DNA of 49,530 bases, taken from the sequence record NC_049825.1. The stretch is one strand, 5' to 3'. Each line of letters begins with the position of its first letter. The stretch's first letter is position 1. The notes under the pieces were generated by a model, which saw only the letters and a program-made list of their open reading frames with translations, was not told the origin of the DNA and did no database searches. This DNA is from Escherichia phage grams. This document shows, piece by piece, positions 403 through 38,761 of this stretch. Both the position numbers and the translations under genes were made by a program.

Positions 403-1107
403 TGCGTTAGATTCAAAGACTGCGCGAGCAAAACCGCGCGGGGTGAGGGAGCGGATCATCTTTGTGCGCGATGATTTTCCGCCAGTTTTGGCCCAGCCTG
501 GATTATCTTTGTCGTCCTCTTTCGGCAGTATTAAAGCGCGCGGAGGAATAACAAAGCCGTTGCCAGTCCAAAGACATGTTTTCTTAAAGTAGCGATCCCG
601 CGCCGGAATGATATCAGGGAAGTCGGGATGTTTATCATCTTCCGGTAAATATCCGGCGTAATCGCACGGATGGAACGTGTAATCAGGCTTACGCCATAAC
701 GTTGACAGCTTGCCTACAGGATTCTCTATCATGTAAGGAACACCGAAATAATCAGCGATATGCGCGGCTATTTTGCAAGTGTCGGCGGCCTCATTTTGGA
801 AGTTAGGATTTTCCATGCGCTTTTTAGCCCAATGGCGAGATCCGCTGTTTGCTAATTGTGTGCAAGGTGGGAAGGCCATAATGAAATCAGGTTTACCCCA
901 ATTTTCAAGTTTTGCGTTATATTTGAATAGATCATCAATCCACACATTAACGTAAAAAATATTATCATGGATTATGCGCACTGAGTGGTAATCTCCGTGA
1001 TCGGCATCATCGTAATTAAAGCAAATGCATTTATAACCAGCATCAGCCCAATCTTTAACAGCCTTACCAGATCCATCAAACAAAGAGAAAATTAAACCTT
1101 TATACAT
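397..1107 (-). CDS. DNA (cytosine-5)-methyltransferase
   Basis: 236 aa; motif I FSLFDGSGK, catalytic PC motif FPPCTQ, ENV motif MIENPVG in canonical order; RBS GAGGTGA upstream. Confidence 0.75.
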   Translation of the reverse strand: MYKGLIFSLFDGSGKAVKDWADAGYKCICFNYDDADHGDYHSVRIIHDNIFYVNVWIDDLFKYNAKLENWGKPDFIMAFPPCTQLANSGSRHWAKKRMENPNFQNEAADTCKIAAHIADYFGVPYMIENPVGKLSTLWRKPDYTFHPCDYAGYLPEDDKHPDFPDIIPARDRYFKKTCLWTGNGFVIPPRALILPKEDDKDNPGWAKTGGKSSRTKMIRSLTPRGFARAVFESNAK

Positions 1108-1116
1108 TTCATCACC

Positions 1117-1341
1117 TCAAAACGGAAAGCATCGCGCACAGTTAGGATCAAAATTGCAGCCGCAATCATTGACAATCATCGTTGGATCTGCAAATGCAGC
1201 GCCGCATTCATGATCCATATCCATATCACCCAGCGCATCATCAAGCGTCCTGATCTTATATGCAACTTCAAGCGCTGCCTCTTTATTTAATCCTGCATCT
1301 TCAGCCATTTGCAGGCGCTCAAAAAATCCGTCCTGACTCAT
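1117..1341 (-). CDS. hypothetical small Cys-rich protein (74 aa)
   Basis: ORF with C-terminal Cys cluster (HECG...NDCGCNFDPNCARC); start ATG overlaps stop of upstream small ORF (ATGA coupling). Confidence 0.5.
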   Translation of the reverse strand: MSQDGFFERLQMAEDAGLNKEAALEVAYKIRTLDDALGDMDMDHECGAAFADPTMIVNDCGCNFDPNCARCFPF

Positions 1342-1451
1342 TTCATAAGCTCCTTGATAACAACCAGAATAATAGCAAGACCAGCAGTGACAACCAAAAG
1401 ACCAATAAGGCCAATCATCACTCCAAATAAAATATCAAGAAATTTCATCAT
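1338..1451 (-). CDS. small hydrophobic membrane peptide (37 aa)
   Basis: MMKFLDILFGVMIGLIGLLVVTAGLAIILVVIKELMK; RBS AAAGGTGA 6 nt upstream; stop overlaps next start; below size cut-off of the ORF track. Confidence 0.4.
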   Translation of the reverse strand: MMKFLDILFGVMIGLIGLLVVTAGLAIILVVIKELMK

Positions 1452-1498
1452 TATTATCACCTTTATTTAAAGGGAGGCGAAAACCTCCCATTGATTAA

Positions 1499-1726
1499 TC
1501 AGACAGCCTTCCAGCTTTCAATAAACATGCTGTTTTCTTCCAGTAGTTTAATCAATTCTTCGCGTGTATATTTGCGGATTTTACTACCAGGATGCGAGCC
1601 AACAACAAACACACCTTTACCGCTTGTGATTGTTAACTGGTTGATTCCGCAAGATTTATCCATTTTCACGGCGACGCGGTGATGTGCATCAACAGTGTGC
1701 ATGATGTTAGTGATTTTAGCTTTCAT
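1499..1726 (-). CDS. hypothetical protein (75 aa)
   Basis: ORF with RBS GAGGA upstream on minus strand. Confidence 0.5.
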   Translation of the reverse strand: MKAKITNIMHTVDAHHRVAVKMDKSCGINQLTITSGKGVFVVGSHPGSKIRKYTREELIKLLEENSMFIESWKAV

Positions 1727-1900
1727 TATTCAATCCTCATTATATTTAGTGTGGTAACTATGCCAATTTTGCGAAATATTGTTTAACAATTCGTGATATC
1801 AGTTGAAATAGCTATGGCGCTTTGCTCGCTTGTCGTCTCCGCCATAATGATCATTAGAAACTGCAATCATCCAGGCATTATGGAATATTATTAGCTTCAT

Positions 1901-2194
1901 CTAATTAATGCCCACCACGTTAAAACTTACAGCTTTTGTTGCGCCAAATACATACGCCTCAACAGCGCCGCCAAATACGCGAATTTTTCCCTGTCCGTAC
2001 TGCGTATTCATATTGCGCCAAACGGTTCTATTAGAACAGAACGCGTTACCAGTCTTAATGAGATTATCCATCTCTTTTCTTAGATCATGATAATCAAGCC
2101 AGAATCTATAAGCGCGTTGTTTAATTCGCGCGCTTCCGGATGGCTGTTTTCGTGTTCCCAGGTAATCAGAGTAACCATTTTCAAATCCTCGCAT
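1901..2194 (-). CDS. hypothetical protein (97 aa)
   Basis: ORF immediately downstream of a motif promoter; short leader without clear SD, start uncertain. Confidence 0.4.
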   Translation of the reverse strand: MRGFENGYSDYLGTRKQPSGSARIKQRAYRFWLDYHDLRKEMDNLIKTGNAFCSNRTVWRNMNTQYGQGKIRVFGGAVEAYVFGATKAVSFNVVGIN

Positions 2195-2211
2195 TCGTTA
2201 TCGATGTGTGT

Positions 2212-2257
2212 AATATATCGGATCGCGAGGATTGAGTTTTAACAAAAAGTGCTATTT
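2212..2257 (-). promoter_or_regulatory. conserved 22-bp element plus -10 (TATATT), leftward
   Basis: AAATAGCACTTTTTGTTAAAAC-N18-TATATT on minus strand; 9-bp inverted repeat AATCCTCGC/GCGAGGATT flanks the -10. Confidence 0.55.
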
Positions 2258-2522
2258 AGTCCAGGAATTCGATTTCACGATCGCCAGTTAACGGATCTAC
2301 AAGCCAGAATCCGAGCGGTTCGCCGTAAACACCGCCATAGAATCCAAGCGCCGCCAGATCTTCACCTTTAACGAATGCCAGGTTTCCGCTACGGCTTACG
2401 TGCGACACGTTAACGATAACCGGAAAGGTGCGATCCTTAAACGCAGGCCGCAGGGCGTAACATCCGTTGTTGAGCAAACGGGCTTTGCGCTTAACTGGAA
2501 TAGGTGCATTGATTCGCGCCAT
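2256..2522 (-). CDS. hypothetical protein (89 aa)
   Basis: Internal ATG of track ORF 2256..2615 chosen because of RBS AAAGGGGAAATAAAG and to avoid overlap with upstream gene; stop TAA abuts conserved element. Confidence 0.5.
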   Translation of the reverse strand: MARINAPIPVKRKARLLNNGCYALRPAFKDRTFPVIVNVSHVSRSGNLAFVKGEDLAALGFYGGVYGEPLGFWLVDPLTGDREIEFLD

Positions 2523-2541
2523 CTTTATTTCCCCTTTGTTG

Positions 2542-2781
2542 TTAACCATGTTTAACAGCATCCAGAACATCACAGGATTCGTTAATAAACTTTGCCATGC
2601 GCTTATCATCACCAAAAGGAATTAGCGCGTTAAACTCGCGTTTGCTACTGAATACCGTCACTTTATGAAACGATGCGAACGGCATCGACGGGAACTCTAC
2701 TGTTTGCGTCAGGATCCGCAATCCCATCTTTTTGGCCCTTACCTGGGCCTCAGCGAGTTCAAAATCCACTTCATTAATCAT
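2542..2781 (-). CDS. hypothetical protein (79 aa)
   Basis: ORF; RBS GAGGAG; start overlaps stop of upstream gene (ATGA). Confidence 0.5.
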   Translation of the reverse strand: MINEVDFELAEAQVRAKKMGLRILTQTVEFPSMPFASFHKVTVFSSKREFNALIPFGDDKRMAKFINESCDVLDAVKHG

Positions 2782-3050
2782 TTCTTGATCTCCTCAGCAA
2801 TAAACTTCAGGACTTTGCGCAAAAACACTTCATTATTGATGGTCGCTGGCAATTCCTCTTTCACTTCTTGCGGCAGATAGATATTGCCGTGCCATGTCAA
2901 ACAATCGTAGTTGATACGATAAGAGCAAAGCCATTCGCAATCGTTATCCGCTTCCCAAATGCAGAGTTGCAGAACATCACCGAAATCCTCAACAGTCAGA
3001 TCCAGACCGTGACGCTTTGCAAAGTTGAAAGTGGTTTTGCTGATGTTCAT
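2778..3050 (-). CDS. hypothetical protein (90 aa), first gene of leftward operon
   Basis: ORF with RBS CAGGAGAAAGCAA; preceded by motif promoter at 3089..3134. Confidence 0.55.
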   Translation of the reverse strand: MNISKTTFNFAKRHGLDLTVEDFGDVLQLCIWEADNDCEWLCSYRINYDCLTWHGNIYLPQEVKEELPATINNEVFLRKVLKFIAEEIKK

Positions 3051-3088
3051 TTGCTTTCTCCTGATGGGTATCTCGTTTCGATGTGTGC

Positions 3089-3134
3089 ATTATGCCGAAT
3101 CCAGTCAGGCACGTTTTAACAAAAAGTGCTATTT
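3089..3134 (-). promoter_or_regulatory. conserved 22-bp element plus -10 (CATAAT), leftward
   Basis: Minus-strand reading AAATAGCACTTTTTGTTAAAAC-N18-CATAAT. Confidence 0.55.
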
Positions 3135-3786
3135 GCCTACTGGTCATTATTCCATCTATTCCATTAATCAGGAATAACAGGAATAACTCATTCGCGATCA
3201 CCTGGATTGTGAGACTTTGAGTTTGGTCAATTTTAATCAGTTGATTAACTTTTTGTGTGGAGGGGATAGAGAAACGCGGCCCTCTTGCGTCCTTTCCAGC
3301 AATCCTGGCGCGCGCATCTGTTATTTCTGTTCCCCGCGTTATCTCAATCAAGCCTCCGCACTTTGAGATAACGCAATCAGCGTTCATAAACAAAAAGAAC
3401 AAAATAAAATTTATATATATACACATAAAATCAATAAGTTAGTTATATATGTATTTATATTTGTTATTTACTGTTATGCTTGTTCTGTGGGTATATGGTA
3501 GTGTGGTATTGTTTTTGGTGATATGTATGTGTGGTTGTATACTTTTTAATCAATGGTAATGCGTGGTGATTTTTGTATGTATATATATGGGGTGGCGGCA
3601 ATCCTCCGTCAACCAGGTTAACAAGGTCATTTTTATCTGTTAAACCAATAACTTAACTTGTGCATTTTGTTATCTTTAAACGCGCCACACGCCAAAAGTC
3701 GTTATTAAAACACAAAATATATTGACATGTAGGAAAGGCAAGGCAATAATGCATCCAGTTTAAACGCAACAAAAGGAGTAGATGCC
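3135..3786. repeat. AT-rich non-coding region A (diverged paralogue of 32268..32692)
   Basis: No convincing ORF; shares AATCAATAAGTTAGT, GGTGATTTTT and TTTTGTTATCT blocks with region B. Confidence 0.6.
3722..3750 (+). promoter_or_regulatory. canonical sigma70 promoter (candidate early promoter)
   Basis: TTGACA-N17-AATAAT, about 36 bp upstream of ATG 3787. Confidence 0.6.
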
Positions 3787-4275
3787 ATGAGCGAAGAAAA
3801 TATTAGCACCATGTCGCGCAGTGAGTTCTGCGATATGCTTCGCACCCTGGGCGCGGCAATTGGTAGCGGTGAACGTAATAATGTATTCATGCCAGCACTT
3901 TTCTTGTGCGCTAACGTGGAGAACGGCGACGCAATTACAGCATCGTACATGCGCCAGGTTGTAAACCGCGTACCAGAAGTGAAGCAAAAAGGCGTGATCA
4001 GCATTAAGCGAAAGGTGACTGATGAGGGTGATGGCTTTGTGTTTACGCTCACAGAAGCCAAAAGCAAGCCACGCGTTCTGACTGGTGAAGAAATCGACGA
4101 GATCGCAGAAAAGCGCGCAGAGAAGGCGGTAAGCAAAATCCTTAATCACCTTGTAAGCGTAATGCCAAATATCACAGACCTGGAAGGCGATAAACTTGCT
4201 GGAGCGTGTGAGGCTATCGGGCGCTACCAGGATATGATTCGTAAACTCGCTGGAGGAAAAGAGGTAAAATTCTAA
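3787..4275 (+). CDS. hypothetical early protein (162 aa)
   Basis: ORF with RBS AAAGGAG; first gene downstream of sigma70 promoter. Confidence 0.6.
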   Translation: MSEENISTMSRSEFCDMLRTLGAAIGSGERNNVFMPALFLCANVENGDAITASYMRQVVNRVPEVKQKGVISIKRKVTDEGDGFVFTLTEAKSKPRVLTGEEIDEIAEKRAEKAVSKILNHLVSVMPNITDLEGDKLAGACEAIGRYQDMIRKLAGGKEVKF

Positions 4276-4319
4276 ATAGCACTTTTTGTCAAAAGTCAAA
4301 AACGATAACCAGGCATAAT
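4274..4319 (+). promoter_or_regulatory. conserved 22-bp element plus -10 (CATAAT)
   Basis: AAATAGCACTTTTTGTCAAAAG-N18-CATAAT; overlaps stop codon TAA of upstream gene. Confidence 0.55.
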
Positions 4320-4374
4320 AAATCACATAGGGCGGCACGGCGTCGCCCACTAAAACCAATCAGGAGAAAGCACC

Positions 4375-30300: not shown

Positions 30301-30942
30301 GATGCGAAGTTCACAAAGGAGATCGAAGATTTAAACGGAGTTATTAAGACTGAGGTTGAGGCTAACATCTCTGAAGTGAAACAGGCTATCGCTAACGAGA
30401 CAGAGGCAAGGGTGCAGGCTGACCAGGCGTTAACAGCTAAGTTTGGAGACGTTGAATCTGCATTAGCTCAAAAACTTGATTCATGGGCTGGCGTGTCGTC
30501 TGTTGGTGCTAAATACTCAATGAAACTTGGGTTAACTTACAACGGACAGCAGTACAGCGCAGGCATGATCATGCAGCTTTCGCAGAGTTCATCCGGCCTT
30601 ATCTCGCAGATTTTGTTTGATGCGAACAGGTTCGCCATCATGACAAGTTCGACTGGCGGGGTGTATACGCTGCCTTTCGTGGTGGAAAATAACCAGGTAT
30701 TCATTAACAGCCTGTTAGTGAAAAACGGTTCAATCACCAATGCGATGATCGGTAATTATATTCAGTCGAATAACTTTGTTGCTAATCAGCAGGGGTGGAG
30801 GCTGGATAAAAACGGCAGATTTGAGAACTACGGTTCTACATCTGGAGAAGGGGCCATGAAGTTGACCAACGAAACAATAAGTGTACGAGACGCAAACGGG
30901 CGCTTGCGTGTTCAGATTGGTAGGCTTACTGGTACATGGTAA
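27364..30942 (+). CDS. host specificity / central tail fibre protein (lambda J-like)
   Basis: 1192 aa; size, position after K and I homologues, Ala-rich coiled-coil segment and variable C-terminus. Confidence 0.85.
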   Translation: MAENMITGSKGGSSKPYVPKEMEDNLISINKIKILLAVSDGECDPDFTLRDLYLDDVPVIADDGTVNYQGVSAEFRPGTQTQDYIQGFTDTSSEVTLARDITTSNPYVISVTNKTLSAIRIKMLMPTGIKQEDNGDLVGVKVTYAVDMAVDGDSYKEVLRDTIEGKTRSGYDRSRRIDLPSFNDRVLLRVRRITADSASSRVTDLIKLQSYAEVIDAKFRYPLTGLVYVEFDSELFPNQIPNISIKKKWKLINVPSNYDPVSREYRGSWDGTFKKAWSNNPAWVLYDIITNQRYGLDQRELGVQVDKWSLYEAAQYCDQKVPDGKGGTEPRYLCDVVIQSQIEAYQLIRDICSIFRGMSFWNGESLSIVIDKPRDPSYIFTNDNVVDGDFQYTTASEKSMYTQCNVTFDDEQNMYQQDVEGVFDTEAALRFGYNPTSITAIGCTRRSEANRRGRWILKTNLRSTTVNFATGLEGMIPSIGDVIAIADNFHSSNLKLNLSGRVMEVSGLQVFVPFKIDARPGDFIIINKPDGKPVKRTISKVSDDGKTIELNIGFGFEVKPDTVFAIDRTDIALQQYVVTSIGKGDDDDEFTYSITAVEYDPNKYDEIDYGVNIDDRPTSIVQPDTMAAPENVQISSYSRIVQGASVETMVVSWDKVPYASLYEMQWRKGDGNWLNTPQTANKEIEVEGIYSGNYQVRVRSVSASGSTSPWSRIVTASLTGKVGEPGAPVNLTASDNEVFGIRVKWGMPEGSGDTAYIELHQSPDGTAENSSLLTLIPYPQYEYWHGTLPAGHVVWYRIRSVDRIGNVSGWTDFVRGMASDDVEAVLGDILDKIFDTEAGQDLKENAIDSANKIKDQAQAIIQNALANDADIKWTRVQNGKRKAEYGHALELIATETEARVTQIEELRASIDEDIVSSIKTVQEAIATESETRATQINALDSKFTTEIDGVKRDTAASINQVNQTIANESEARAQAVNALDAKFTKEIEDLNGVIKTEVEANISEVKQAIANETEARVQADQALTAKFGDVESALAQKLDSWAGVSSVGAKYSMKLGLTYNGQQYSAGMIMQLSQSSSGLISQILFDANRFAIMTSSTGGVYTLPFVVENNQVFINSLLVKNGSITNAMIGNYIQSNNFVANQQGWRLDKNGRFENYGSTSGEGAMKLTNETISVRDANGRLRVQIGRLTGTW

Positions 30943-30985
30943 AATCAAAGCGGGGCGATTGCCCCGCATCTATGGAGGTTTAATA

Positions 30986-31291
30986 ATGGCTGAATATGGT
31001 GTTTCAACGTGGGATGCTAACGGGAAGTATAACAACTACGGAATCAAGCCAGTTTCCGTTGTTGGTGTCATCAGCCTTGCCGCTGGTCAGACAAGCGGAT
31101 CGTGGAGCTTTAGCATTCCAAGTGGTTTTAAGGTTGGGTATGTTGTTTCACTTGATGAAGGTGCTAGAGGAGTTGGAAGGGAAATAGTAGCATCTGGAAA
31201 TACAATAAGAATTAGTCCTACATCGTCAATCGGTGCAAATAGATATTCTTCTTCAAAGTGCGAGTTAGTTGTTTTTCTTGAGAGGGTTTAA
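30986..31291 (+). CDS. hypothetical protein (101 aa), paralogue a
   Basis: ATG with RBS GGAGG; N-terminus MAEYGVSTWDANGKY similar to next gene. Confidence 0.5.
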   Translation: MAEYGVSTWDANGKYNNYGIKPVSVVGVISLAAGQTSGSWSFSIPSGFKVGYVVSLDEGARGVGREIVASGNTIRISPTSSIGANRYSSSKCELVVFLERV

Positions 31292-31292
31292 A

Positions 31293-31931
31293 ATGGCTGA
31301 GTATGGAGCGATGTTATCATTATCAAATGGGAATCCATTTGTTACACCAAAATCAACGCCATTTTGCTTATATGGCAAGTACACTTATTCATCTTCAGGC
31401 ACTTCTGCCTACCATAGCGCAAGCGCAAATATACCAGTAAATCAATCTTATCCATGCATGGCATTTATAAAAACAACAAACACACAACAGCCAACTGCAT
31501 TAATAGCTTACAGGAACGGTGGTAACATTTATGTAAACGGAGGCAATCCATACGGGCAATCATTTACAATGACTGTTTATATATTTGCTATATTCCCTCA
31601 AACTCTACCAAAATATGGTATGGCTATATGGGATGCAAGCGGAAAGTTGGTTTTAACTAATGAAAGCAGGGTGCTAACAGACCTTGTGACAATTGGCACT
31701 CCTGGATCTTCAGGTGGGACGAATATAGATCAGACATTATCTGGTTCTTATGCCGTTTGCCCATCAAGGCTTGGTGCGGTTATAGGTATGGGTGCGTCTG
31801 ACATATATACATCATGCAGGTATAATGGTTCAGTCACAAGGATAGGTGCAGCAAGGACAACTCCAGGGACGGGTTCTATAACAAATAACGGAAATTCAAT
31901 AATTGCAATAAAGACTGATATTTACGACTAA
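31293..31931 (+). CDS. hypothetical protein (212 aa), paralogue b
   Basis: N-terminus MAEYG and WDASGK block shared with preceding gene. Confidence 0.5.
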   Translation: MAEYGAMLSLSNGNPFVTPKSTPFCLYGKYTYSSSGTSAYHSASANIPVNQSYPCMAFIKTTNTQQPTALIAYRNGGNIYVNGGNPYGQSFTMTVYIFAIFPQTLPKYGMAIWDASGKLVLTNESRVLTDLVTIGTPGSSGGTNIDQTLSGSYAVCPSRLGAVIGMGASDIYTSCRYNGSVTRIGAARTTPGTGSITNNGNSIIAIKTDIYD

Positions 31932-31963: not shown

Positions 31964-32191
31964 TTACAGACTGCAATCAGCGTTTTTAAAGTTGTCAATG
32001 CTTACCCACTGAAAATTAAACGGATAGCCAGCCTTAACAAGAGTGCGGTCGCCAACTCGTTTTACTTCAAAAATAGCAACTGAATACTGCATACCGCTAT
32101 TTTCATAAATAGCCGTGCATTCACGTTTAGGCATATTTGCGCAACCAGTCAGGGTTACGGCTGCAATCAAAACGGCGATTAACTTTTTCAT
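31964..32191 (-). CDS. outer-membrane lipoprotein, Cor-like superinfection exclusion candidate
   Basis: 75 aa; signal peptide plus lipobox LTGC; small size, location just after the J gene and opposite orientation. Confidence 0.5.
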   Translation of the reverse strand: MKKLIAVLIAAVTLTGCANMPKRECTAIYENSGMQYSVAIFEVKRVGDRTLVKAGYPFNFQWVSIDNFKNADCSL

Positions 32192-35317: not shown

Positions 35318-35345
35318 CAAAGGGGCATTACGCCCCTTTTTCACT
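35318..35345. terminator. bidirectional intrinsic terminator
   Basis: AAAGGGGCATTACGCCCCTTTTT between convergent genes. Confidence 0.7.
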
Positions 35346-35585
35346 TTCAGCCATCCCAAGCACGGCAATCACCTTAACAGCAATTCTCTTTGCAAGTTCA
35401 GTTTGATGAGCGTTAAGTTTTCCAGTGGTCATTATTGACAACATTCCGCTCATACTTCCAAGCCCGTTAAAATCTGACATTGCTGATTTCATTATTGATA
35501 TTGGTGAGTGACCTTCATCAGCTATTGTGTGCGCTCTCTCTGAAAGGTCTTTAACTACCTGATCAATTCCTTCACTTTTCGTCAT
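35328..35585 (-). CDS. hypothetical protein (85 aa)
   Basis: ORF, last gene of leftward operon. Confidence 0.45.
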   Translation of the reverse strand: MTKSEGIDQVVKDLSERAHTIADEGHSPISIMKSAMSDFNGLGSMSGMLSIMTTGKLNAHQTELAKRIAVKVIAVLGMAESEKGA

Positions 35586-36063
35586 TTGCTTTTCCTTCAG
35601 GAGTTGATTGCTGTTCTGGCATTACAGGCCACGGGCTAATTGATTCCCTTTCTGCTACTGGCTTTTCAGGTTCAATTCCTAAAAACTTTCCTACAAACTC
35701 ACCAACAAAATTTGAGCTATCGCTTACATAAACATGCATCCTGTCTAGATCTGCAACAGTAACGCTATTTGGTGCGATCATGATCCTCTGTTGGTGGAAA
35801 CCGATATACATCACATTAGCCGGACGCTCAAGAGTCCCCATATTTGGCGCAATTACGCCCATTATCCAACAATAATGAATGTTGCCATCAAGCGGCTCAC
35901 ATCCAGCGTTAAGCCAGTTTACTTTCTGGTGAGGAAACGCCATTGATGAATCAGTAGCATCACGCCGTAACGACCATTTAACGCCGCCAATCTCAATGAT
36001 TTGTTTCGGCCTCATCCCGTTGAATTGAGTCACGCCAGCGCCATTTTGATTAATGTTTTGCAT
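35572..36063 (-). CDS. hypothetical protein (163 aa)
   Basis: ORF in operon. Confidence 0.5.
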   Translation of the reverse strand: MQNINQNGAGVTQFNGMRPKQIIEIGGVKWSLRRDATDSSMAFPHQKVNWLNAGCEPLDGNIHYCWIMGVIAPNMGTLERPANVMYIGFHQQRIMIAPNSVTVADLDRMHVYVSDSSNFVGEFVGKFLGIEPEKPVAERESISPWPVMPEQQSTPEGKANDEK

Positions 36064-36077
36064 ATCGGTTAACCTTT

Positions 36078-36401
36078 TTACATTGATTTCATTTTACGCA
36101 ATGCGCAGATACAAGCGGCAGCAAGATCGGTTAATTCTTTCTCAATGCCATGATGCGAGCCGTCTGCCTTTTCGGTCATTAGCTCTTTGTATTCCATTTC
36201 TACAATCGACATTAAGCCGCCTGGCTTGTCAATGTGCGCGTCCCAGGTTTTAGGATAGTGCTTAGTTCTTTCCATAACACTTCCCATAACTGAATCATGT
36301 TTGCTATCTCGCTCATAATCATCATCATGATCATCACTCCCGATTGAAACTCGCGGCAAATGAATGCGCGGTATTTTATAGCCAGCATAACGGATCTTCA
36401 T
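36078..36401 (-). CDS. possible MazG-like nucleotide pyrophosphohydrolase
   Basis: 107 aa; paired EEx-EL-like blocks (VEMEYKELMTEK, EKELTDLAAACICALRK); weak. Confidence 0.3.
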   Translation of the reverse strand: MKIRYAGYKIPRIHLPRVSIGSDDHDDDYERDSKHDSVMGSVMERTKHYPKTWDAHIDKPGGLMSIVEMEYKELMTEKADGSHHGIEKELTDLAAACICALRKMKSM

Positions 36402-36450
36402 TATCTCGCCCTCTTGATGAAAAGCGCCCCGAAAGGCGCTTGATTTATTA

Positions 36451-37152
36451 TCAGCCGCAACAGCCAGTAGGCGGAGTCTGAGGAGTAGGCAACTTGAAGT
36501 TTACCAATTGCTCTACCTGGTTGATTTTGCAATTCAGTGCGGCGGTCTGGTTTGCCTGAGAAAGAGCAAAACGAGCCTCCTGCAACTGAGCTTTCATATC
36601 GCAAATCAGAACAGCCTGAGAATCAGCGAACTGTTGACGAATCAGATCTCGCGTTGCGTTACCTTGTCGCTCAATGTTCAGGTTAGTCTCGCAGCAACAT
36701 CTCTCAGCTGCAATCTGTGCCTGATAGGAACGCTCAAGAGCATTAACATCAGCAGCATTAATCGCAGCAACTGTCTGGTTAGTACCGCTAACAATCGCGG
36801 TATTCAGTCCGGCGAAACCTTGCACCGATGCAAGCAGGCTTTGCGTATTCTGGCTGGTAATGCCGTTAAATGTTGATGCGGCGGAGCGCTCAACGGCAAG
36901 GTTTGTGGAGTTTTGGCCTTGCAGAGTTTGCAGTCCTAGGTTGTTTACGCCTGTCTGGATGTTATTAATACCATCAAGAACAGCGTTAGCACCGACAGCA
37001 ACAGCCGCACCATCACCACCATAACCACCACGACCATTAAATCCGTTACCAAACCATGACCCAATCAGGCCGCCAACAGCACCGCCAAGACCAGCCGCGC
37101 CAGCTTCGCCACCAAAACCACCACCAGTAGGGAGTAAAGTCATATCTGACAT
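36451..37152 (-). CDS. glycine-rich, Cys-clustered protein (233 aa)
   Basis: ATG at 37152 with RBS AGAGGA; about 60-residue Gly-rich N-terminus, Gln/Asn/Thr/Ser-rich middle, CCC and CCG clusters near C-terminus. Confidence 0.55.
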   Translation of the reverse strand: MSDMTLLPTGGGFGGEAGAAGLGGAVGGLIGSWFGNGFNGRGGYGGDGAAVAVGANAVLDGINNIQTGVNNLGLQTLQGQNSTNLAVERSAASTFNGITSQNTQSLLASVQGFAGLNTAIVSGTNQTVAAINAADVNALERSYQAQIAAERCCCETNLNIERQGNATRDLIRQQFADSQAVLICDMKAQLQEARFALSQANQTAALNCKINQVEQLVNFKLPTPQTPPTGCCG

Positions 37153-37330
37153 AGTAAATTCCTCTTTGACGTTAAAAAAATTAAAAAAAGTTTGCAACAT
37201 TTATGTTACGACAAAGAGTATGCGCCAAATTACCAGGAATAGATATAAAACATTTGTAAGCGATATGTCAGCAAATGGCATAAAGACGAAAAAAGGCGCA
37301 GCCGTAGCAGCGCCTTGTGATTATTTTTTG

Positions 37331-38698
37331 TTAACTCTCAAGAGTTGTCTGTTTGTTGATTAATGCAGAAACAGCCGCTTTCAGTTCTTCAACCTCCTTT
37401 TCAAGTTTTGCTATTTTTTCTTTGTTATCAACATCACGAGAACGTAGAGCCTTTATTGCAGCCAATCCATCAAGAAGCATTGGTGTTTGATCTAAATGAA
37501 GAATGCCGCCAATTTCTTTTGTGTATTCTCTATCTATCTTTCTGATTTGTTGAGATATAACGCCCCTTCTATAACTTCTTTCTGGGCCATCAGATAAATA
37601 TGAAAATATTTTAAAATCCATCCTGTTTATATTGTCTAAAGCGCCTTCAATATTAAGATTTCCCTTAATATTTTTCATTGTTTCATCTGATATTGCGTAA
37701 GTGGTTAGGCCAGCCCACGCACTCCATGCTCCAGATTCCATTGTTCTTGCATAAAATGACGAATTACGTGCTGACAACTGAAAAACATAATTATCTGGCG
37801 AACCAACATGAGGGATATTTATACCAAATGTAACTAGGCTAGACGCTCCATTTGTTGAGCCAGTAAAGAATCTATAATATTTTGTGGAGTTTAAATCGCT
37901 CCAGTCTGAATCACCATACTCAGCCCATGCCAATTTTTGATTTTTTGCATATTCCTCAGTGCTTTGATATCCAGTTCCTCCTTGATCAATTCCCAATGGT
38001 ATCCATCCAGGAGTATTATTTTTTGTAACTCCCCATTCACCATTGTTTGCAAGACTGAATTTATAATCACCAACAGTCATTACTGTTGACGTTGTTTCTT
38101 GTACAAATCTGTCTACGCTTAGGTTTTTTCTTGCTTCACCTTTATCTGCAACATCGCTAAGGTTGTTGTTTTTGTTAAGCATATTTGCCGGATTTATGCT
38201 ATCTGCATATTCTTTCGCCTTATCTTCAGAAGCCTTAGCGGCATTTTTTGAAGTCAGAGCATCAGAAGCAGATCTCGCTGCGGCATCCTTGCTTTGATTC
38301 GCAGACGCTGCGTTTTCTTCCACCTGTTTAGCCAAATCTTGATAATGCTTCCAATCAAACGTCTTAAAGAATTCCAGCGCTTCCCCGATCTCTGATTCTT
38401 TACTCTGATAGTAGCGCAATGTTTCCGCTACATCTTGAGCAAGCCCATCAACAGTTATTGAGTCATGAAGCAAGATCGCGTAATTTGAGCGAGCAACTAC
38501 CGCACCTCCAGTTGTAATTGCACGAATGCTTGTATCGTTGATAACTTCAGTTATTACAGCAATCTGCAACGGCTGAGTTAAAAATACAATGGTCGCACCA
38601 GGGCGAATGAGTGTTAGTTGCTCTCGCCATTTTGTGTCGTATCCAGTGATATAACCTTGTGCGTCCATTGACGCTTGTCCGGTTCTGTAAATTGCCAT
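37331..38698 (-). CDS. tail fibre protein with C-terminal intramolecular chaperone domain
   Basis: ATG at 38698 with RBS GGGAGA; Ala/Ser/Lys-rich repeats like fibre shafts; C-terminal region recalled as resembling autoproteolytic chaperone domains of T5 L-shaped fibre. Confidence 0.65.
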
Positions 38699-38761
38699 GC
38701 GTTTTCTCCCATGTTGCATGTTAATGTCAATGCAGATAATAGCATTTGCTAAGGCCAAAAA

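What the first reader, a model, noticed from the sequence alone, without database searches (positions are those of the whole stretch)
36451..37152. Glycine-rich, cysteine-clustered protein downstream of the tail fibre gene
This 233-aa protein has an N-terminal stretch of about 60 residues dominated by Gly and Ala, a Gln/Asn/Thr/Ser-rich middle, and Cys clusters (CCC and a C-terminal CCG). I do not recognise this composition from the standard tail proteins. It is co-transcribed after the tail fibre and followed by a MazG-like gene and two unknown genes. It could be a fibre-associated or virion component, a secreted or membrane-active factor, or an exclusion or host-modulating protein.
Basis: seen in the sequence. 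Interest (0 to 1): 0.55.

Follow-up and report, generated by a model that had tools for sequence, protein, structure and literature searches.

The report
Membrane-anchored cysteine-cluster protein leading phage cassette
The glycine-rich, cysteine-clustered protein is real and widely conserved, but it is probably not a tail-fibre part: it is the first gene of a four-gene accessory cassette of unknown function that phages gain and lose as a unit, and relatives carry a true membrane anchor where this protein has its glycine-rich stretch.

Summary
The ORF is real: minus strand, 37152→36451, 233 aa, with a good ribosome-binding site. It matches phrog_9288 (unknown function) end to end and nothing in Pfam, NCBIfam, PADLOC or PDB. 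The family is broad, with 123 clusters at 50% identity. Its fixed features are a GxxxG glycine zipper (G27, G31), a QGF motif and CCC, which is present in 100/100 diverse members. AlphaFold gives a disordered N-terminus and a confident ~105-residue helix. In 14 of 63 non-redundant homologues the glycine zipper is replaced by a true hydrophobic transmembrane helix behind an acidic N-tail. That suggests a single-span anchor with the N-terminus outside and the C-terminus inside the cell.

The conserved neighbours are the three downstream genes, not the fibre. These are a MazG-like protein of the all-α NTP pyrophosphohydrolase type and two unknowns. All four genes are missing together from the sister-genus phage swan01, whose fibre locus is intact. 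T5-like phages that acquired only the first gene keep it as a pseudogene. A terminator hairpin separates the gene from the fibre gene.

My best reading is a membrane-anchored helical thiol-cluster protein acting with its cassette partners in the infected cell. The function is unknown, and a packaged or ejected virion protein is not excluded.

The parts
36451..37152 (-). CDS of the 233-aa protein (phrog_9288 family), stop codon included
37159..37164 (-). Ribosome-binding site GAGGAA, 6 nt before the ATG
   Evidence: read directly from the sequence
37129..37152 (-). Conserved N-terminal tail MSDMTLLP. The family pattern is M-[TSDE]-D-[MIL]-[NT]-L-[LIV]-[PE]. The tail is acidic and has no Lys or Arg.
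37048..37104 (-). Glycine-zipper segment, aa 17-35 (AGAAGLGGAVGGLIGSWFG), carrying G23xxxG27xxxG31xxxG35. G27 and G31 are family-invariant. 14/63 homologues have a true transmembrane helix at this position.
36994..37128 (-). Gly/Ala-rich region, aa 9-53, predicted disordered, including the Gly/Trp/Phe/Arg-rich stretch that follows the zipper
36829..36996 (-). Helix 1, aa 53-108. Gln/Asn-rich and amphipathic with a period of about 3.65 residues. Low model confidence.
36793..36822 (-). QGFAGLNTAI motif, aa 111-120. Q111 is invariant. The unit occurs 1-4 times in homologues.
36499..36816 (-). Helix 2, aa 113-218: one continuous helix of about 105 residues, pLDDT 82-91
36691..36699 (-). Invariant CCC, aa 152-154
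36601..36603 (-). Cys184 in the 'LICD' motif, 32 residues after the CCC. A Cys at +32 or +36 is the first Cys after the CCC in 82/100 of the diverse set and occurs in 31/63 non-redundant representatives.
36454..36492 (-). Pro/Thr-rich tail ending in Cys-Cys-Gly, aa 221-233 (LPTPQTPPTGCCG). Distant homologues end in Pro-rich stretches followed by GCGC-type tails or poly-Thr tails.
37293..37316 (-). Intrinsic-terminator hairpin after the tail fibre gene, followed by a T-run at 37292-37287
   Evidence: -15.8 kcal/mol, z = -3.8; present in relatives
37194..37209 (-). Conserved stem-loop in the 5' leader, just downstream of a -10-like box (CATACT, 37217-37222)
   Evidence: (5-bp core paired in 13/13 sequences, two covarying pairs)
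36422..36441 (-). Hairpin between this gene and the next cassette gene, with a weak T-tail
   Evidence: -12.3 kcal/mol, z = -1.8
36078..36401 (-). Cassette gene 2 (d1, phrog_9157): MazG-like protein of the all-α NTP-pyrophosphohydrolase superfamily, with an Asp/His-rich N-terminal extension
35572..36063 (-). Cassette gene 3 (d2, phrog_8329), 163 aa, unknown function, acidic tail
35328..35585 (-). Cassette gene 4 (d3, phrog_7239), 85 aa, unknown function; its sequence looks helical (not modelled)
37331..38758 (-). Upstream lateral tail fibre gene with a Peptidase_S74 intramolecular chaperone. This is context, not part of the cassette.

Best explanation
The protein belongs to a widespread, uncharacterised phage family with a fixed layout. 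From N- to C-terminus it has a short acidic tail, a GxxxG glycine zipper that is a true transmembrane helix in some relatives, a Gly/Trp/Arg-rich stretch, Gln/Asn-rich amphipathic helices, a long continuous helix carrying an invariant CCC and usually one more Cys 32 residues on, and a Pro/Thr-rich tail that often ends in a Cys cluster.

I infer that it attaches to the host inner membrane through the N-terminal segment. The short acidic tail would face the periplasm and the helical rod would sit in the cytoplasm. It probably self-associates through the glycine zipper and the long helix. The thiol clusters would then either bind a metal or cofactor or cross-link the chains.

It is the lead gene of a self-contained four-gene accessory cassette. 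The partners are a MazG-like protein, often with a His-rich extension, and two unknown proteins. The cassette moves between phage genomes as a unit. I propose that it acts during infection as a host-directed or exclusion module at the membrane, not as a component or chaperone of the lateral tail fibre.

Shown: family membership, the invariant residues, the long helix, transmembrane helices in homologues, cassette linkage, and cassette presence or absence as a unit. Inferred: membrane insertion of this particular protein, its topology, oligomerisation, metal binding and biological role.
For: - **Family and signature.** The protein matches phrog_9288 full length. Searches found 123 clusters at 50% identity and 429 profile hits. 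Invariant residues are G27, G31, Q111 and C152-154, and CCC is present in 100/100 diverse members.
- **Membrane anchor.** Of 63 non-redundant representatives, 14 have a hydrophobic transmembrane helix (apparent insertion free energy of 2 kcal/mol or less, e.g. WWIIILFLFAF) at the position of the zipper. The N-tail has mean net charge -1.8, and 53/63 are more positive after the segment than before it. GxxxG occurs at least twice in 54/63.
- **Cassette.** BLASTP and iterated HMMs find d1, d2 and d3 immediately downstream on the same strand in essentially every intact locus fetched, including distant phages with quite different upstream genes. Per-genus counts of phage records holding this gene and d2 are nearly identical once about 80 T5-like remnants are set aside.
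- **Unit gain and loss.** Warwickvirus swan01 has primase, fibre, a 92-aa gene and an S74 protein, then SSB, with all four cassette genes absent. Hanrivervirus KarlJaspers has the same fibre set plus all four.
- **Decay without partners.** The T5-like copies beside intact S74 fibres, which lack d1-d3, are frameshifted or truncated in all 3 examined.
- **Separate transcription signals.** A terminator hairpin follows the fibre gene. Relatives have promoter-like boxes and a covarying leader hairpin.
- **Possible metal theme.** d1 is MazG-like (PDB 2p06, E=1.2e-4) and often carries His-rich tracts. Some homologues end in CHNGCHGCC or GCGC tails.
Against: - The window protein's own segment is only weakly hydrophobic (Kyte-Doolittle 1.13; summed Hessa scale about +5.2 kcal/mol). 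It would not be called a transmembrane helix on its own.
- The charge asymmetry comes mostly from the acidic N-tail, not from a basic C-flank, so the topology call is soft.
- No oligomer, metal or membrane result could be computed here.
- In many lineages the cassette lies next to, and co-oriented with, virion genes. These are tail fibres (18/27 S74 plus 2/27 Caudo_TAP among close relatives; L081, L040), virion or internal proteins (L079, L043), the stretch between MuF and scaffold/capsid genes (L045, L084, L085), and the position just before terminase (L041). That pattern would also fit a packaged protein.
- The consensus promoter scan found no sigma-70 site in the window's 178-nt spacer, so read-through from the fibre gene cannot be excluded.
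- No experiment on any family member was found in the literature.
Confidence: 0.42

Rival explanations
1. It is a packaged or ejected virion protein. It would be carried in the particle, alone or with cassette partners, and released at infection. Its fusion-peptide-like or transmembrane N-terminus would insert into the host envelope, and the helical rod would help span the periplasm or deliver cargo. The analogy is to podovirus ejection proteins or to packaged anti-restriction proteins.
For: The cassette is repeatedly adjacent to and co-oriented with structural genes. It follows fibre genes (L081 and L040), virion or internal-virion proteins (L079, L043), sits inside the head module between MuF-like and scaffold/capsid genes (L045, L084, L085), and lies just before terminase (L041). 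The N-terminus resembles membrane-inserting peptides: there are repeated sub-threshold HA2 hits and true transmembrane helices in homologues. The two helices together would be about 24 nm long if extended (1.5 Å per residue, from general knowledge). Accessory status is compatible with packaged anti-defence proteins.
Against: The HA2 hits are not significant (E of 0.24 or higher). The cassette includes an enzyme-like MazG-type protein and lies in early-like regions in other phages (L038, L039, L042, L069). It is dispensable between sister genera. No virion proteome lists it, but the only relevant dataset found is for swan01, which lacks the gene and yielded only 5 proteins, so it says nothing either way.
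Confidence: 0.2
2. It is a lateral tail fibre accessory: an assembly chaperone, distal subunit or cap. This is what the BASEL annotation of the KurtStettler fusion protein ('putative lateral tail fiber chaperone') and the gene's position suggest.
For: The gene lies immediately downstream of an S74-ended fibre gene in 18/27 close relatives and downstream of Caudo_TAP in 2/27. Remnants travel with fibre genes into T5-like phages. A natural in-frame fusion to an S74 fibre protein exists in KurtStettler. The composition is fibrous, Gln/Asn/Gly/Ser/Thr-rich with repeats.
Against: There is no similarity to any tail-fibre or chaperone family. The upstream fibre carries its own intramolecular chaperone. 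swan01 has the same fibre gene set without this gene. The T5-like copies are pseudogenes beside intact fibres. In several distant phages the cassette is not near fibres. A terminator lies between the fibre gene and this gene. Homologues carry a transmembrane helix.
Confidence: 0.08
3. It is a soluble cytoplasmic thiol or metal-binding coiled-coil protein with no membrane association. In this subfamily the Gly-rich N-terminus would be just a disordered low-complexity region.
For: The window protein's segment is too weakly hydrophobic to be called a transmembrane helix. CCC is invariant and C-terminal Cys or Cys/His clusters are frequent. The partner d1 often has a His-rich extension.
Against: GxxxG is invariant and is positionally equivalent to real transmembrane helices in 14/63 relatives. 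The acidic-tail and aromatic-belt arrangement (SWFGNGW) is conserved.
Confidence: 0.12
4. It is an accessory lysis or envelope-disruption protein of the spanin or holin type: a membrane anchor, a helical periplasmic rod with disulfide-forming Cys, and a Pro-rich end.
For: The architecture superficially recalls an i-spanin joined to the Pro-rich o-spanin (from general knowledge). In L037 the cassette lies a few genes upstream of an endolysin.
Against: Phages of this genus already have holin, endolysin and u-spanin together elsewhere in the genome. The protein has no lipobox and no basic N-terminus, and the charge pattern favours a cytoplasmic C-terminal domain. The cassette is absent from the lysis-competent swan01.
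Confidence: 0.06
5. It is a colicin- or pesticin-like released factor. An N-terminal TonB-box-like peptide followed by a Gly-rich unstructured region and a long helix would engage TonB-dependent uptake in neighbouring cells or compete for TonB.
For: The N-terminus MSDMTLLPTGGG resembles the pesticin N-terminus with its TonB box as I recall it (from memory, not tested). The layout of a Gly-rich disordered region followed by a long helix recalls colicin translocation and receptor-binding domains. Many siphoviruses of these groups use TonB-dependent receptors (PMC8594841).
Against: Beyond close relatives, the motif is conserved only as an acidic residue followed by a hydrophobic pattern. No cytotoxic domain is present. 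Homologues carry a transmembrane helix right after the motif. Nothing here tests TonB binding.
Confidence: 0.04

Closest known systems
PHROG family phrog_9288 (unknown function), listed as 'hypothetical protein' in Hanrivervirus, Nonagvirus/Seuratvirus, Sashavirus, PY100, eiAU and others
   Same: Full-length sequence match at E=1.7e-123. This is the family the protein belongs to.
   Different: The family has no assigned function. The annotations seen in GenBank are positional or automatic guesses with no support found here: 'putative sugar-binding protein' for the KarlJaspers orthologue, and 'putative lateral tail fiber chaperone' for the KurtStettler fusion protein.
Tail fibre assembly proteins (Caudo_TAP / lambda Tfa type) and Peptidase_S74 intramolecular chaperones
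   Same: In close relatives the gene lies directly after a lateral tail fibre gene.
   Different: No sequence or profile similarity. The fibre already has an S74 chaperone. The linkage is lost in distant phages and in swan01.
Pf3 coat protein-type single-span membrane proteins, N-terminus out and C-terminus in, with signal-peptide-independent insertion of a short acidic N-tail (from general knowledge)
   Same: A short acidic N-tail without Lys or Arg, no signal peptide, one hydrophobic or GxxxG segment, and more positive charge after it.
   Different: The cytoplasmic domain here is large, about 190 aa. The window protein's segment is much less hydrophobic than a normal transmembrane helix. Insertion and topology are untested.
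Phage phi29 p16.7, a membrane-anchored coiled-coil protein that organises replication at the membrane (from general knowledge)
   Same: An N-terminal anchor followed by a cytoplasmic helical or coiled-coil domain, encoded among replication and recombination genes in T1-like phages.
   Different: No sequence similarity. The protein here is acidic, with no DNA-binding domain. This is an analogy of architecture only.
Viral class I fusion peptides (influenza HA2), glycine-zipper proteins (SlyB) and class II microcins
   Same: A Gly/Ala-rich hydrophobic stretch with aromatic residues (GGAVGGLIGSWFGNGW) followed by a long helix. Both family profiles repeatedly hit HA2 residues 4-70 and SlyB.
   Different: All hits are statistically insignificant (E 0.24-8). 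I judge the resemblance to be compositional, not homology.
Spanins (Rz/Rz1, T1 gp11)
   Same: A membrane anchor, a helical rod with conserved Cys, and a Pro-rich end.
   Different: It is not in the lysis cassette, has no lipobox, has the opposite charge bias at the N-terminus, and a u-spanin is already present.

Membership tests
phrog_9288 | Full-length profile match | tested here: met
   E=1.7e-123, residues 1-233 against profile positions 1-234 of 234
Tail fibre assembly chaperone (Caudo_TAP / Tfa; Phage_tail_APC) | Sequence or profile similarity to the family | tested here: not met
   No Pfam hit below E=0.05; the only PHROG hit is phrog_9288
Tail fibre assembly chaperone (Caudo_TAP / Tfa; Phage_tail_APC) | Obligate genetic linkage to a fibre gene that needs a separate chaperone | tested here: not met
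   The upstream fibre has its own S74 chaperone domain. swan01 has the same fibre set without this gene. The linkage is absent in L038, L039, L041, L042 and L069.
Tail fibre assembly chaperone (Caudo_TAP / Tfa; Phage_tail_APC) | Required for fibre folding or present on the fibre tip | not testable with these tools
   Needs genetics or virion proteomics
Single-span inner-membrane protein, N-terminus out and C-terminus in (Pf3-coat-like insertion) | Hydrophobic segment long and hydrophobic enough to span the bilayer | tested here: inconclusive
   Window protein: Kyte-Doolittle 1.13, Hessa sum about +5.2 kcal/mol, so not sufficient alone. 14/63 homologues score 2 kcal/mol or less at the same position.
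Single-span inner-membrane protein, N-terminus out and C-terminus in (Pf3-coat-like insertion) | Short acidic N-tail, no signal peptide, more positive C-flank | tested here: met
   The N-tail has D3 and E16 and no Lys or Arg. Family mean is -1.8 before the segment, and 53/63 are more positive after it.
Single-span inner-membrane protein, N-terminus out and C-terminus in (Pf3-coat-like insertion) | Experimental membrane integration and topology | not testable with these tools
   Needs fractionation and reporter fusions
Glycine-zipper membrane motif (GxxxGxxxG) | Tandem GxxxG in the hydrophobic segment, conserved | tested here: met
   G23/G27/G31/G35 are present and G27 and G31 are invariant. 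At least two GxxxG in 54/63. No Pfam Gly-zipper family was hit, so this is a motif, not family membership.
Spanin (i-, o- or u-type) | Lipobox or basic N-terminal signal-anchor, and location in the lysis cassette | tested here: not met
   No lipobox in the sequence. The N-tail is acidic. Holin, endolysin and u-spanin lie together elsewhere in KarlJaspers.
Colicin/pesticin-type TonB-dependent translocation domain | TonB box that binds TonB, plus receptor-binding and cytotoxic domains | not tested
   The only basis is a remembered resemblance of MSDMTLLPTGGG to the pesticin N-terminus. No cytotoxic domain was found, and the motif is loosely conserved.
Influenza HA2-like class I fusion protein | Significant sequence or fold similarity | tested here: not met
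   Best E values are 0.52 and 0.29. Foldseek gave no hits.
All-α NTP pyrophosphohydrolase (MazG-like) - the neighbouring gene d1, not the target | Profile similarity to the superfamily and an EXXE...EXXD motif | tested here: inconclusive
   The d1 profile hits PDB 2p06 (AF_0060) at E=1.2e-4. 3/22 members weakly hit PRA-PH and 1/22 hits MazG. E70-x2-E73...E90-x2-D93 is present in the window protein, but only E70 is invariant in the family. That AF_0060 belongs to the MazG-like superfamily is from memory.
Known anti-phage defence proteins (PADLOC) | Profile match | tested here: not met
   No hit for any of the four cassette proteins at E of 1 or less

The most novel reading that the evidence does not exclude
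The four genes form a previously undescribed mobile phage module. A glycine-zipper or transmembrane-anchored rod, with an invariant CCC and terminal Cys clusters, would assemble at the host inner membrane. There it would work with a His-rich MazG-like enzyme and two unknown proteins as a metal- or nucleotide-linked host-takeover, exclusion or counter-defence system with no characterised relatives.
Probability: 0.25. Interest if true: 0.75.

Novelty: categorically new. Interest (0 to 1): 0.55.

Why it matters
T1-like, 9g-like and many other phages used in therapy collections and as model systems (e.g. BASEL) carry this cassette, and none of its four proteins has a known function. The analysis gives three practical gains.

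- **Annotation.** The gene should not be labelled as a fibre chaperone or sugar-binding protein.
- **Definition.** The family now has a signature (GxxxG, QGF, CCC, a Cys at +32) and a four-gene unit that can be searched for.
- **Ready comparisons.** Nature already provides informative cases: Hanrivervirus has the cassette and Warwickvirus lacks it with the same fibre locus, and T5-like phages carry decayed orphan copies.

If the module proves to be a membrane-based takeover, exclusion or counter-defence device, it would be a new kind of phage accessory system. If it proves to be a packaged protein, it would add a new class of ejection protein shared across tail types.

Tried and rejected
- **Family libraries.** Pfam, NCBIfam and PADLOC gave no credible hit for the target.
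- **Solved structures by sequence.** Two family profiles returned only insignificant HA2 and SlyB hits. I treat these as compositional.
- **Structure prediction.** With close homologues the model was a single low-confidence helix. A more diverse alignment improved confidence but not the fold information.
- **Heptad analysis.** There is no 3.5-residue periodicity, so I do not claim a canonical left-handed coiled coil. Residues 54-150 show about 3.65.
- **Rfam.** The region gave no relevant RNA family.
- **Promoter scan.** No sigma-70 match in the window's own 178-nt spacer. The promoter idea rests on relatives only.
- **Bacterial genomes.** One scan, with one motif pattern, found only 2 metagenome-assembled-genome contigs. 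The family is therefore rare as a prophage, though the search was narrow.
- **Literature.** Searches for 'lateral tail fiber chaperone', phrog_9288, glycine zipper and virion proteomes found nothing on this protein. I also checked the BASEL, 9g, KanT1 and aquatic-coliphage papers. The PY100 virion-proteome paper is not held.
- **Ideas rejected.** A double-glycine-leader microcin: no matching leader spacing and no exporter gene seen among the neighbouring genes. A SAR-type or Sec signal anchor: the N-terminus is acidic. A DNA-binding role: the protein is acidic, with 11 Lys+Arg against 15 Asp+Glu.
- **Cassette partners.** d2 alone and as a profile gave no PDB hit. d1 alone gave none.
Full report
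**1. The observation.**
The ORF lies on the minus strand: ATG at 37152, stop at 36453-36451, 233 aa. A GAGGAA ribosome-binding site sits 6 nt upstream. Homologues begin at the same Met, so the 233-aa reading is right and the longer 249-aa ORF is not.

Residues 1-60 are 35% Gly and 15% Ala. Residues 61-220 are dominated by Ala, Gln, Asn, Leu, Thr and Ser. The cysteines are at 152-154, 184, 208 and 231-232.

The window is a T1-like phage of Drexlerviridae, closest to Hanrivervirus isolates such as vB_Eco-B1.3, Fulano1, damhaus and KarlJaspers.

**2. The family.**
The protein matches phrog_9288 (unknown function) over its full length at E=1.7e-123. It has no credible match in Pfam, NCBIfam or PADLOC.

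- A word-indexed search found 230 clusters of 225-265-aa 'hypothetical proteins'.
- An exhaustive profile search of 1.84 billion representatives found 123 clusters at 50% identity, mostly 200-290 aa.
- A profile of the distant members found 429 proteins.

Across 100 diverse members, about 30% identical to the query, the invariant columns are G27, Q111 and C152-C153-C154. M1, G31, S32, F34-G37, N117, T167, R168, L170, D185 and K187 are nearly invariant.

- CCC is present in 100/100.
- A further Cys 32 or 36 residues after the CCC (Cys184, the 'LCD' motif) is the first Cys after the CCC in 82 of the 100 and occurs in 31 of 63 non-redundant representatives.
- The QGF[AS]GLNTAI unit occurs 1-4 times.
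- The N-terminus follows M-[TSDE]-D-[MIL]-[NT]-L-[LIV]-[PE].
- C-termini are Pro/Thr-rich and in 17/63 representatives end in a Cys cluster, such as GCC, GCGCNGCGC or CHNGCHGCC.

**3. Structure.**
With an alignment of close homologues, AlphaFold2 gave a disordered N-terminus and one low-confidence helix. With the diverse alignment it gave four parts:

- residues 1-52 disordered;
- helix 53-108, pLDDT about 50-57;
- a break at VQGF;
- one continuous helix 113-218, pLDDT 82-91, followed by a disordered tail.

Alignment-averaged hydrophobicity has a period of about 3.65 residues over 54-150 and no clear heptad signal. The safe statement is 'long amphipathic helices that almost certainly pack in an oligomer'. 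A specific coiled-coil type cannot be claimed.

**4. The N-terminal segment is probably a membrane anchor.**
The window protein has G23xxxG27xxxG31xxxG35, and G27 and G31 are invariant. The segment is weakly hydrophobic: Kyte-Doolittle 1.13, and a summed Hessa scale of about +5.2 kcal/mol.

Among 63 non-redundant full-length representatives:

- 14 have an unmistakable hydrophobic helix at the same position, for example GILIILFFLIF, WWIIILFLFAF or LIGILLIAALF;
- 7 are intermediate;
- the tail before the segment is short (median start at residue 18) and acidic (mean net charge -1.8);
- 36/63 have no Lys or Arg in that tail;
- 53/63 are more positive after the segment than before it.

These members carry the QGFAGLNT, CCC and later motifs, so they are true relatives.

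From the positive-inside rule and the known behaviour of short acidic N-tails (general knowledge), I infer the N-terminus faces out and the C-terminus faces in, with the rod and its thiols in the cytoplasm. This is inference. For the glycine-zipper subfamily, membrane integration itself is unproven.

Both family profiles repeatedly picked up influenza HA2 fusion peptide plus helix A, and SlyB, but at E of 0.24 or higher. I take this as compositional resemblance only.

**5. Context: the conserved partners are downstream, not upstream.**

*Upstream.* In the window the upstream gene is a lateral tail fibre with a Peptidase_S74 intramolecular chaperone. Among 27 close-relative loci, 18 have an S74 protein and 2 a Caudo_TAP protein upstream.

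*Downstream.* In distant phages the upstream genes vary widely. They include 7-deazaguanine synthesis genes (L038), a divergent early-like junction (L039), a metallophosphoesterase (L069), a GpJ/fibre/chaperone set (L040), virion or internal-virion proteins (L079, L043), a jumbo-phage fibre gene (L081), and MuF-to-scaffold head genes (L045, L084, L085). In L041 the cassette lies just upstream of terminase.

What stays constant is the downstream run. It consists of a MazG-like protein of about 80-160 aa (d1, phrog_9157), a protein of about 130-200 aa (d2, phrog_8329) and a protein of about 60-100 aa (d3, phrog_7239).

- BLASTP links these across phages at E values down to 7e-51.
- Iterated HMMs find d1 and/or d2 immediately downstream, on the same strand, in essentially every intact locus fetched.
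- In the phage collection the target occurs in 218 records and d2 in 138. Per-genus counts are the same or nearly so (Yersinia 17/17, Shigella 6/6, Edwardsiella 4/4, Klebsiella 3/3, Escherichia 64/60). The exception is about 80 extra, mostly Salmonella, T5-like records.

**6. Three natural experiments.**

- **Unit gain and loss.** Warwickvirus swan01, from the sister genus, has primase, lateral fibre, a 92-aa gene and an S74 protein, followed directly by the convergent SSB gene. None of the four families is detectable in the 50,000 of its 50,865 bases that were scanned. Hanrivervirus KarlJaspers has the same fibre set plus all four genes. The cassette is one indel, and the fibre locus does not need it.
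- **Orphan copies decay.** In T5-like Epseptimavirus, a copy sits right after the S74-ended fibre gene but without d1-d3. It is decayed in all three cases inspected. In polluks it starts MSDRTLLP..., is interrupted after about 110 codons and continues in another frame. SuperGirl keeps a 41-aa remnant. L035 has a truncated 125-aa ORF. The likely history is hitch-hiking with the fibre 3' end followed by decay.
- **A tolerated fusion.** In KurtStettler the family member, lacking its first ~16 residues, is fused in frame to the end of an S74 fibre protein. An intact N-tail is therefore dispensable for plaque formation in the laboratory. The BASEL label 'putative lateral tail fiber chaperone' belongs to this fusion product.

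**7. Transcription signals.**
The 178-nt spacer after the fibre gene contains a hairpin of -15.8 kcal/mol (z = -3.8) followed by a T-run (37316-37287). The same hairpin occurs in relatives.

Downstream, relatives have TTGTCA/TTGTAA-type -35 boxes and TAGAAT/TATGCT-type -10 boxes. The window aligns CATACT there but has a poor -35 box, and the consensus scan reports no promoter.

Right after the -10 position lies a short stem-loop (37209-37194). Its 5-bp core is paired in 13/13 diverse sequences, with A-U to G-C exchanges at two pairs. The covariation score is 0.293 against 0.187 in shuffles, reached by 0/500 shuffles, and slid controls give 0.125 or less.

An independent transcription unit starting with a 5' hairpin is plausible but not shown. 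Read-through cannot be excluded.

**8. The partners.**
The d1 profile hits PDB 2p06 (AF_0060) at E=1.2e-4. A few members weakly hit PRA-PH or MazG.

The window protein has E70-x2-E73...E90-x2-D93, but only E70 is invariant in the family. 'MazG-like' therefore holds at superfamily level, and catalysis is uncertain.

Many d1 proteins carry His-rich N-terminal tracts, for example HHHHHYHHGHH. The window's version is Asp/His-rich. Together with the Cys clusters of the target this hints at metal handling, but it is only a hint.

d2 and d3 match nothing. A complete holin, endolysin and u-spanin cassette lies elsewhere in this genus.

**9. Weighing the explanations.**
The fibre-accessory reading fails on four counts: family membership, the swan01 comparison, the T5-like pseudogenes, and the distant contexts.

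The best-supported reading is a membrane-anchored helical thiol-cluster protein that works with its three co-inherited partners during infection (confidence about 0.4).

The main rival is a packaged or ejected virion protein (about 0.2). It is kept alive by the frequent adjacency and co-orientation with structural genes, including a position inside the head module in one subfamily.

Three readings are less likely: a soluble metal-binding protein, a lysis accessory, and a TonB-box-bearing released factor.

No publication on the family was found. The one virion proteome from this phage group is for swan01, which lacks the gene, and it detected only five proteins (PMC6563131).

**10. Novelty and scores.**
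The sequences are in databases as hypothetical proteins. Neither the protein nor the four-gene unit resembles any characterised system in the libraries searched. I therefore rate it as categorically new in kind, with the caveat that it is uncharacterised, not that a new mechanism has been demonstrated.

Interest is 0.55. This is a widespread, sharply defined family with an unusual invariant CCC, a likely membrane anchor and ready-made natural controls, but its function is still unknown.

Noticed in passing
window 37194-37222 (minus strand); aligned regions of L006, L010, L013, L015-L019, L023, L025, L028, L030: A short stem-loop directly after a conserved -10-like box in the leader of the gene. 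Its 5-bp core is paired in 13/13 diverse phages, with two covarying pairs. It could be a 5'-terminal mRNA-stabilising hairpin or an operator.
   Followed up: partly
L001 3981-5513 (Escherichia phage KurtStettler bas22_0024): A natural in-frame fusion of an S74-containing fibre protein to a family member lacking its first ~16 residues. This fusion is annotated 'putative lateral tail fiber chaperone'.
   Followed up: partly
L003 5749-6339 (Salmonella phage polluks); L002 5959-6084 (Escherichia phage SuperGirl); L035: T5-like Epseptimavirus phages carry frameshifted or truncated remnants of this gene right after their lateral fibre gene. Some of the fragments are annotated as 'tail fiber protein'.
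   Followed up: partly
L090 (Escherichia phage vB_Eco_swan01, LT841304) 924-4352: This sister-genus phage has the same primase and fibre locus but lacks all four cassette genes. It is a clean natural deletion or insertion of about 2 kb.
   Followed up: yes
window 36078-36401 (minus strand) and homologues in alignment A8: The MazG-like neighbour has an Asp/His-rich N-terminal extension. In many relatives this becomes long His runs (e.g. HHHHHYHHGHH). In others it is an Arg/Gly/Asp-rich extension or a 344-aa fusion.
   Followed up: partly
MG065636.1, MG065637.1 and other 'Campylobacter phage' records: About 20 GenBank records named as Campylobacter jejuni phages are about 95% identical to this E. 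coli T1-like phage region. They are probably contaminating T1-like coliphages, not Campylobacter phages.
   Followed up: no
window 31964-32191 (minus strand): A 75-aa ORF with a lipoprotein signal (MKKLIAVLIAAVTLTGC...) downstream of the J-like tail tip gene and two small ORFs (30881-31931). It looks like a Cor-type superinfection-exclusion lipoprotein next to the receptor-binding-protein locus.
   Followed up: no
window 38699-38758 (minus strand): The listed fibre ORF starts at a TTG. PHROG tail-fibre profiles align from residue 21 (MAIYRTGQ...), so the real start is probably the ATG 20 codons downstream.
   Followed up: no
JLBYU09, JLBYU41, phage 36, herni, phiE31-2: Cassette genes d2 and d3 are annotated in some records as 'TerL', 'matrix protein' or 'transcriptional regulator'. 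No support for these names was found here.
   Followed up: no
L045, L084, L085, L088 (low-GC metagenomic phage contigs): A subfamily with a true transmembrane helix, sometimes two CCC motifs, and CNCNCN or GCGC tails. It is encoded inside the head module between MuF-like and scaffold/capsid genes. Its downstream neighbours were not recognisably related to d1-d3.
   Followed up: partly
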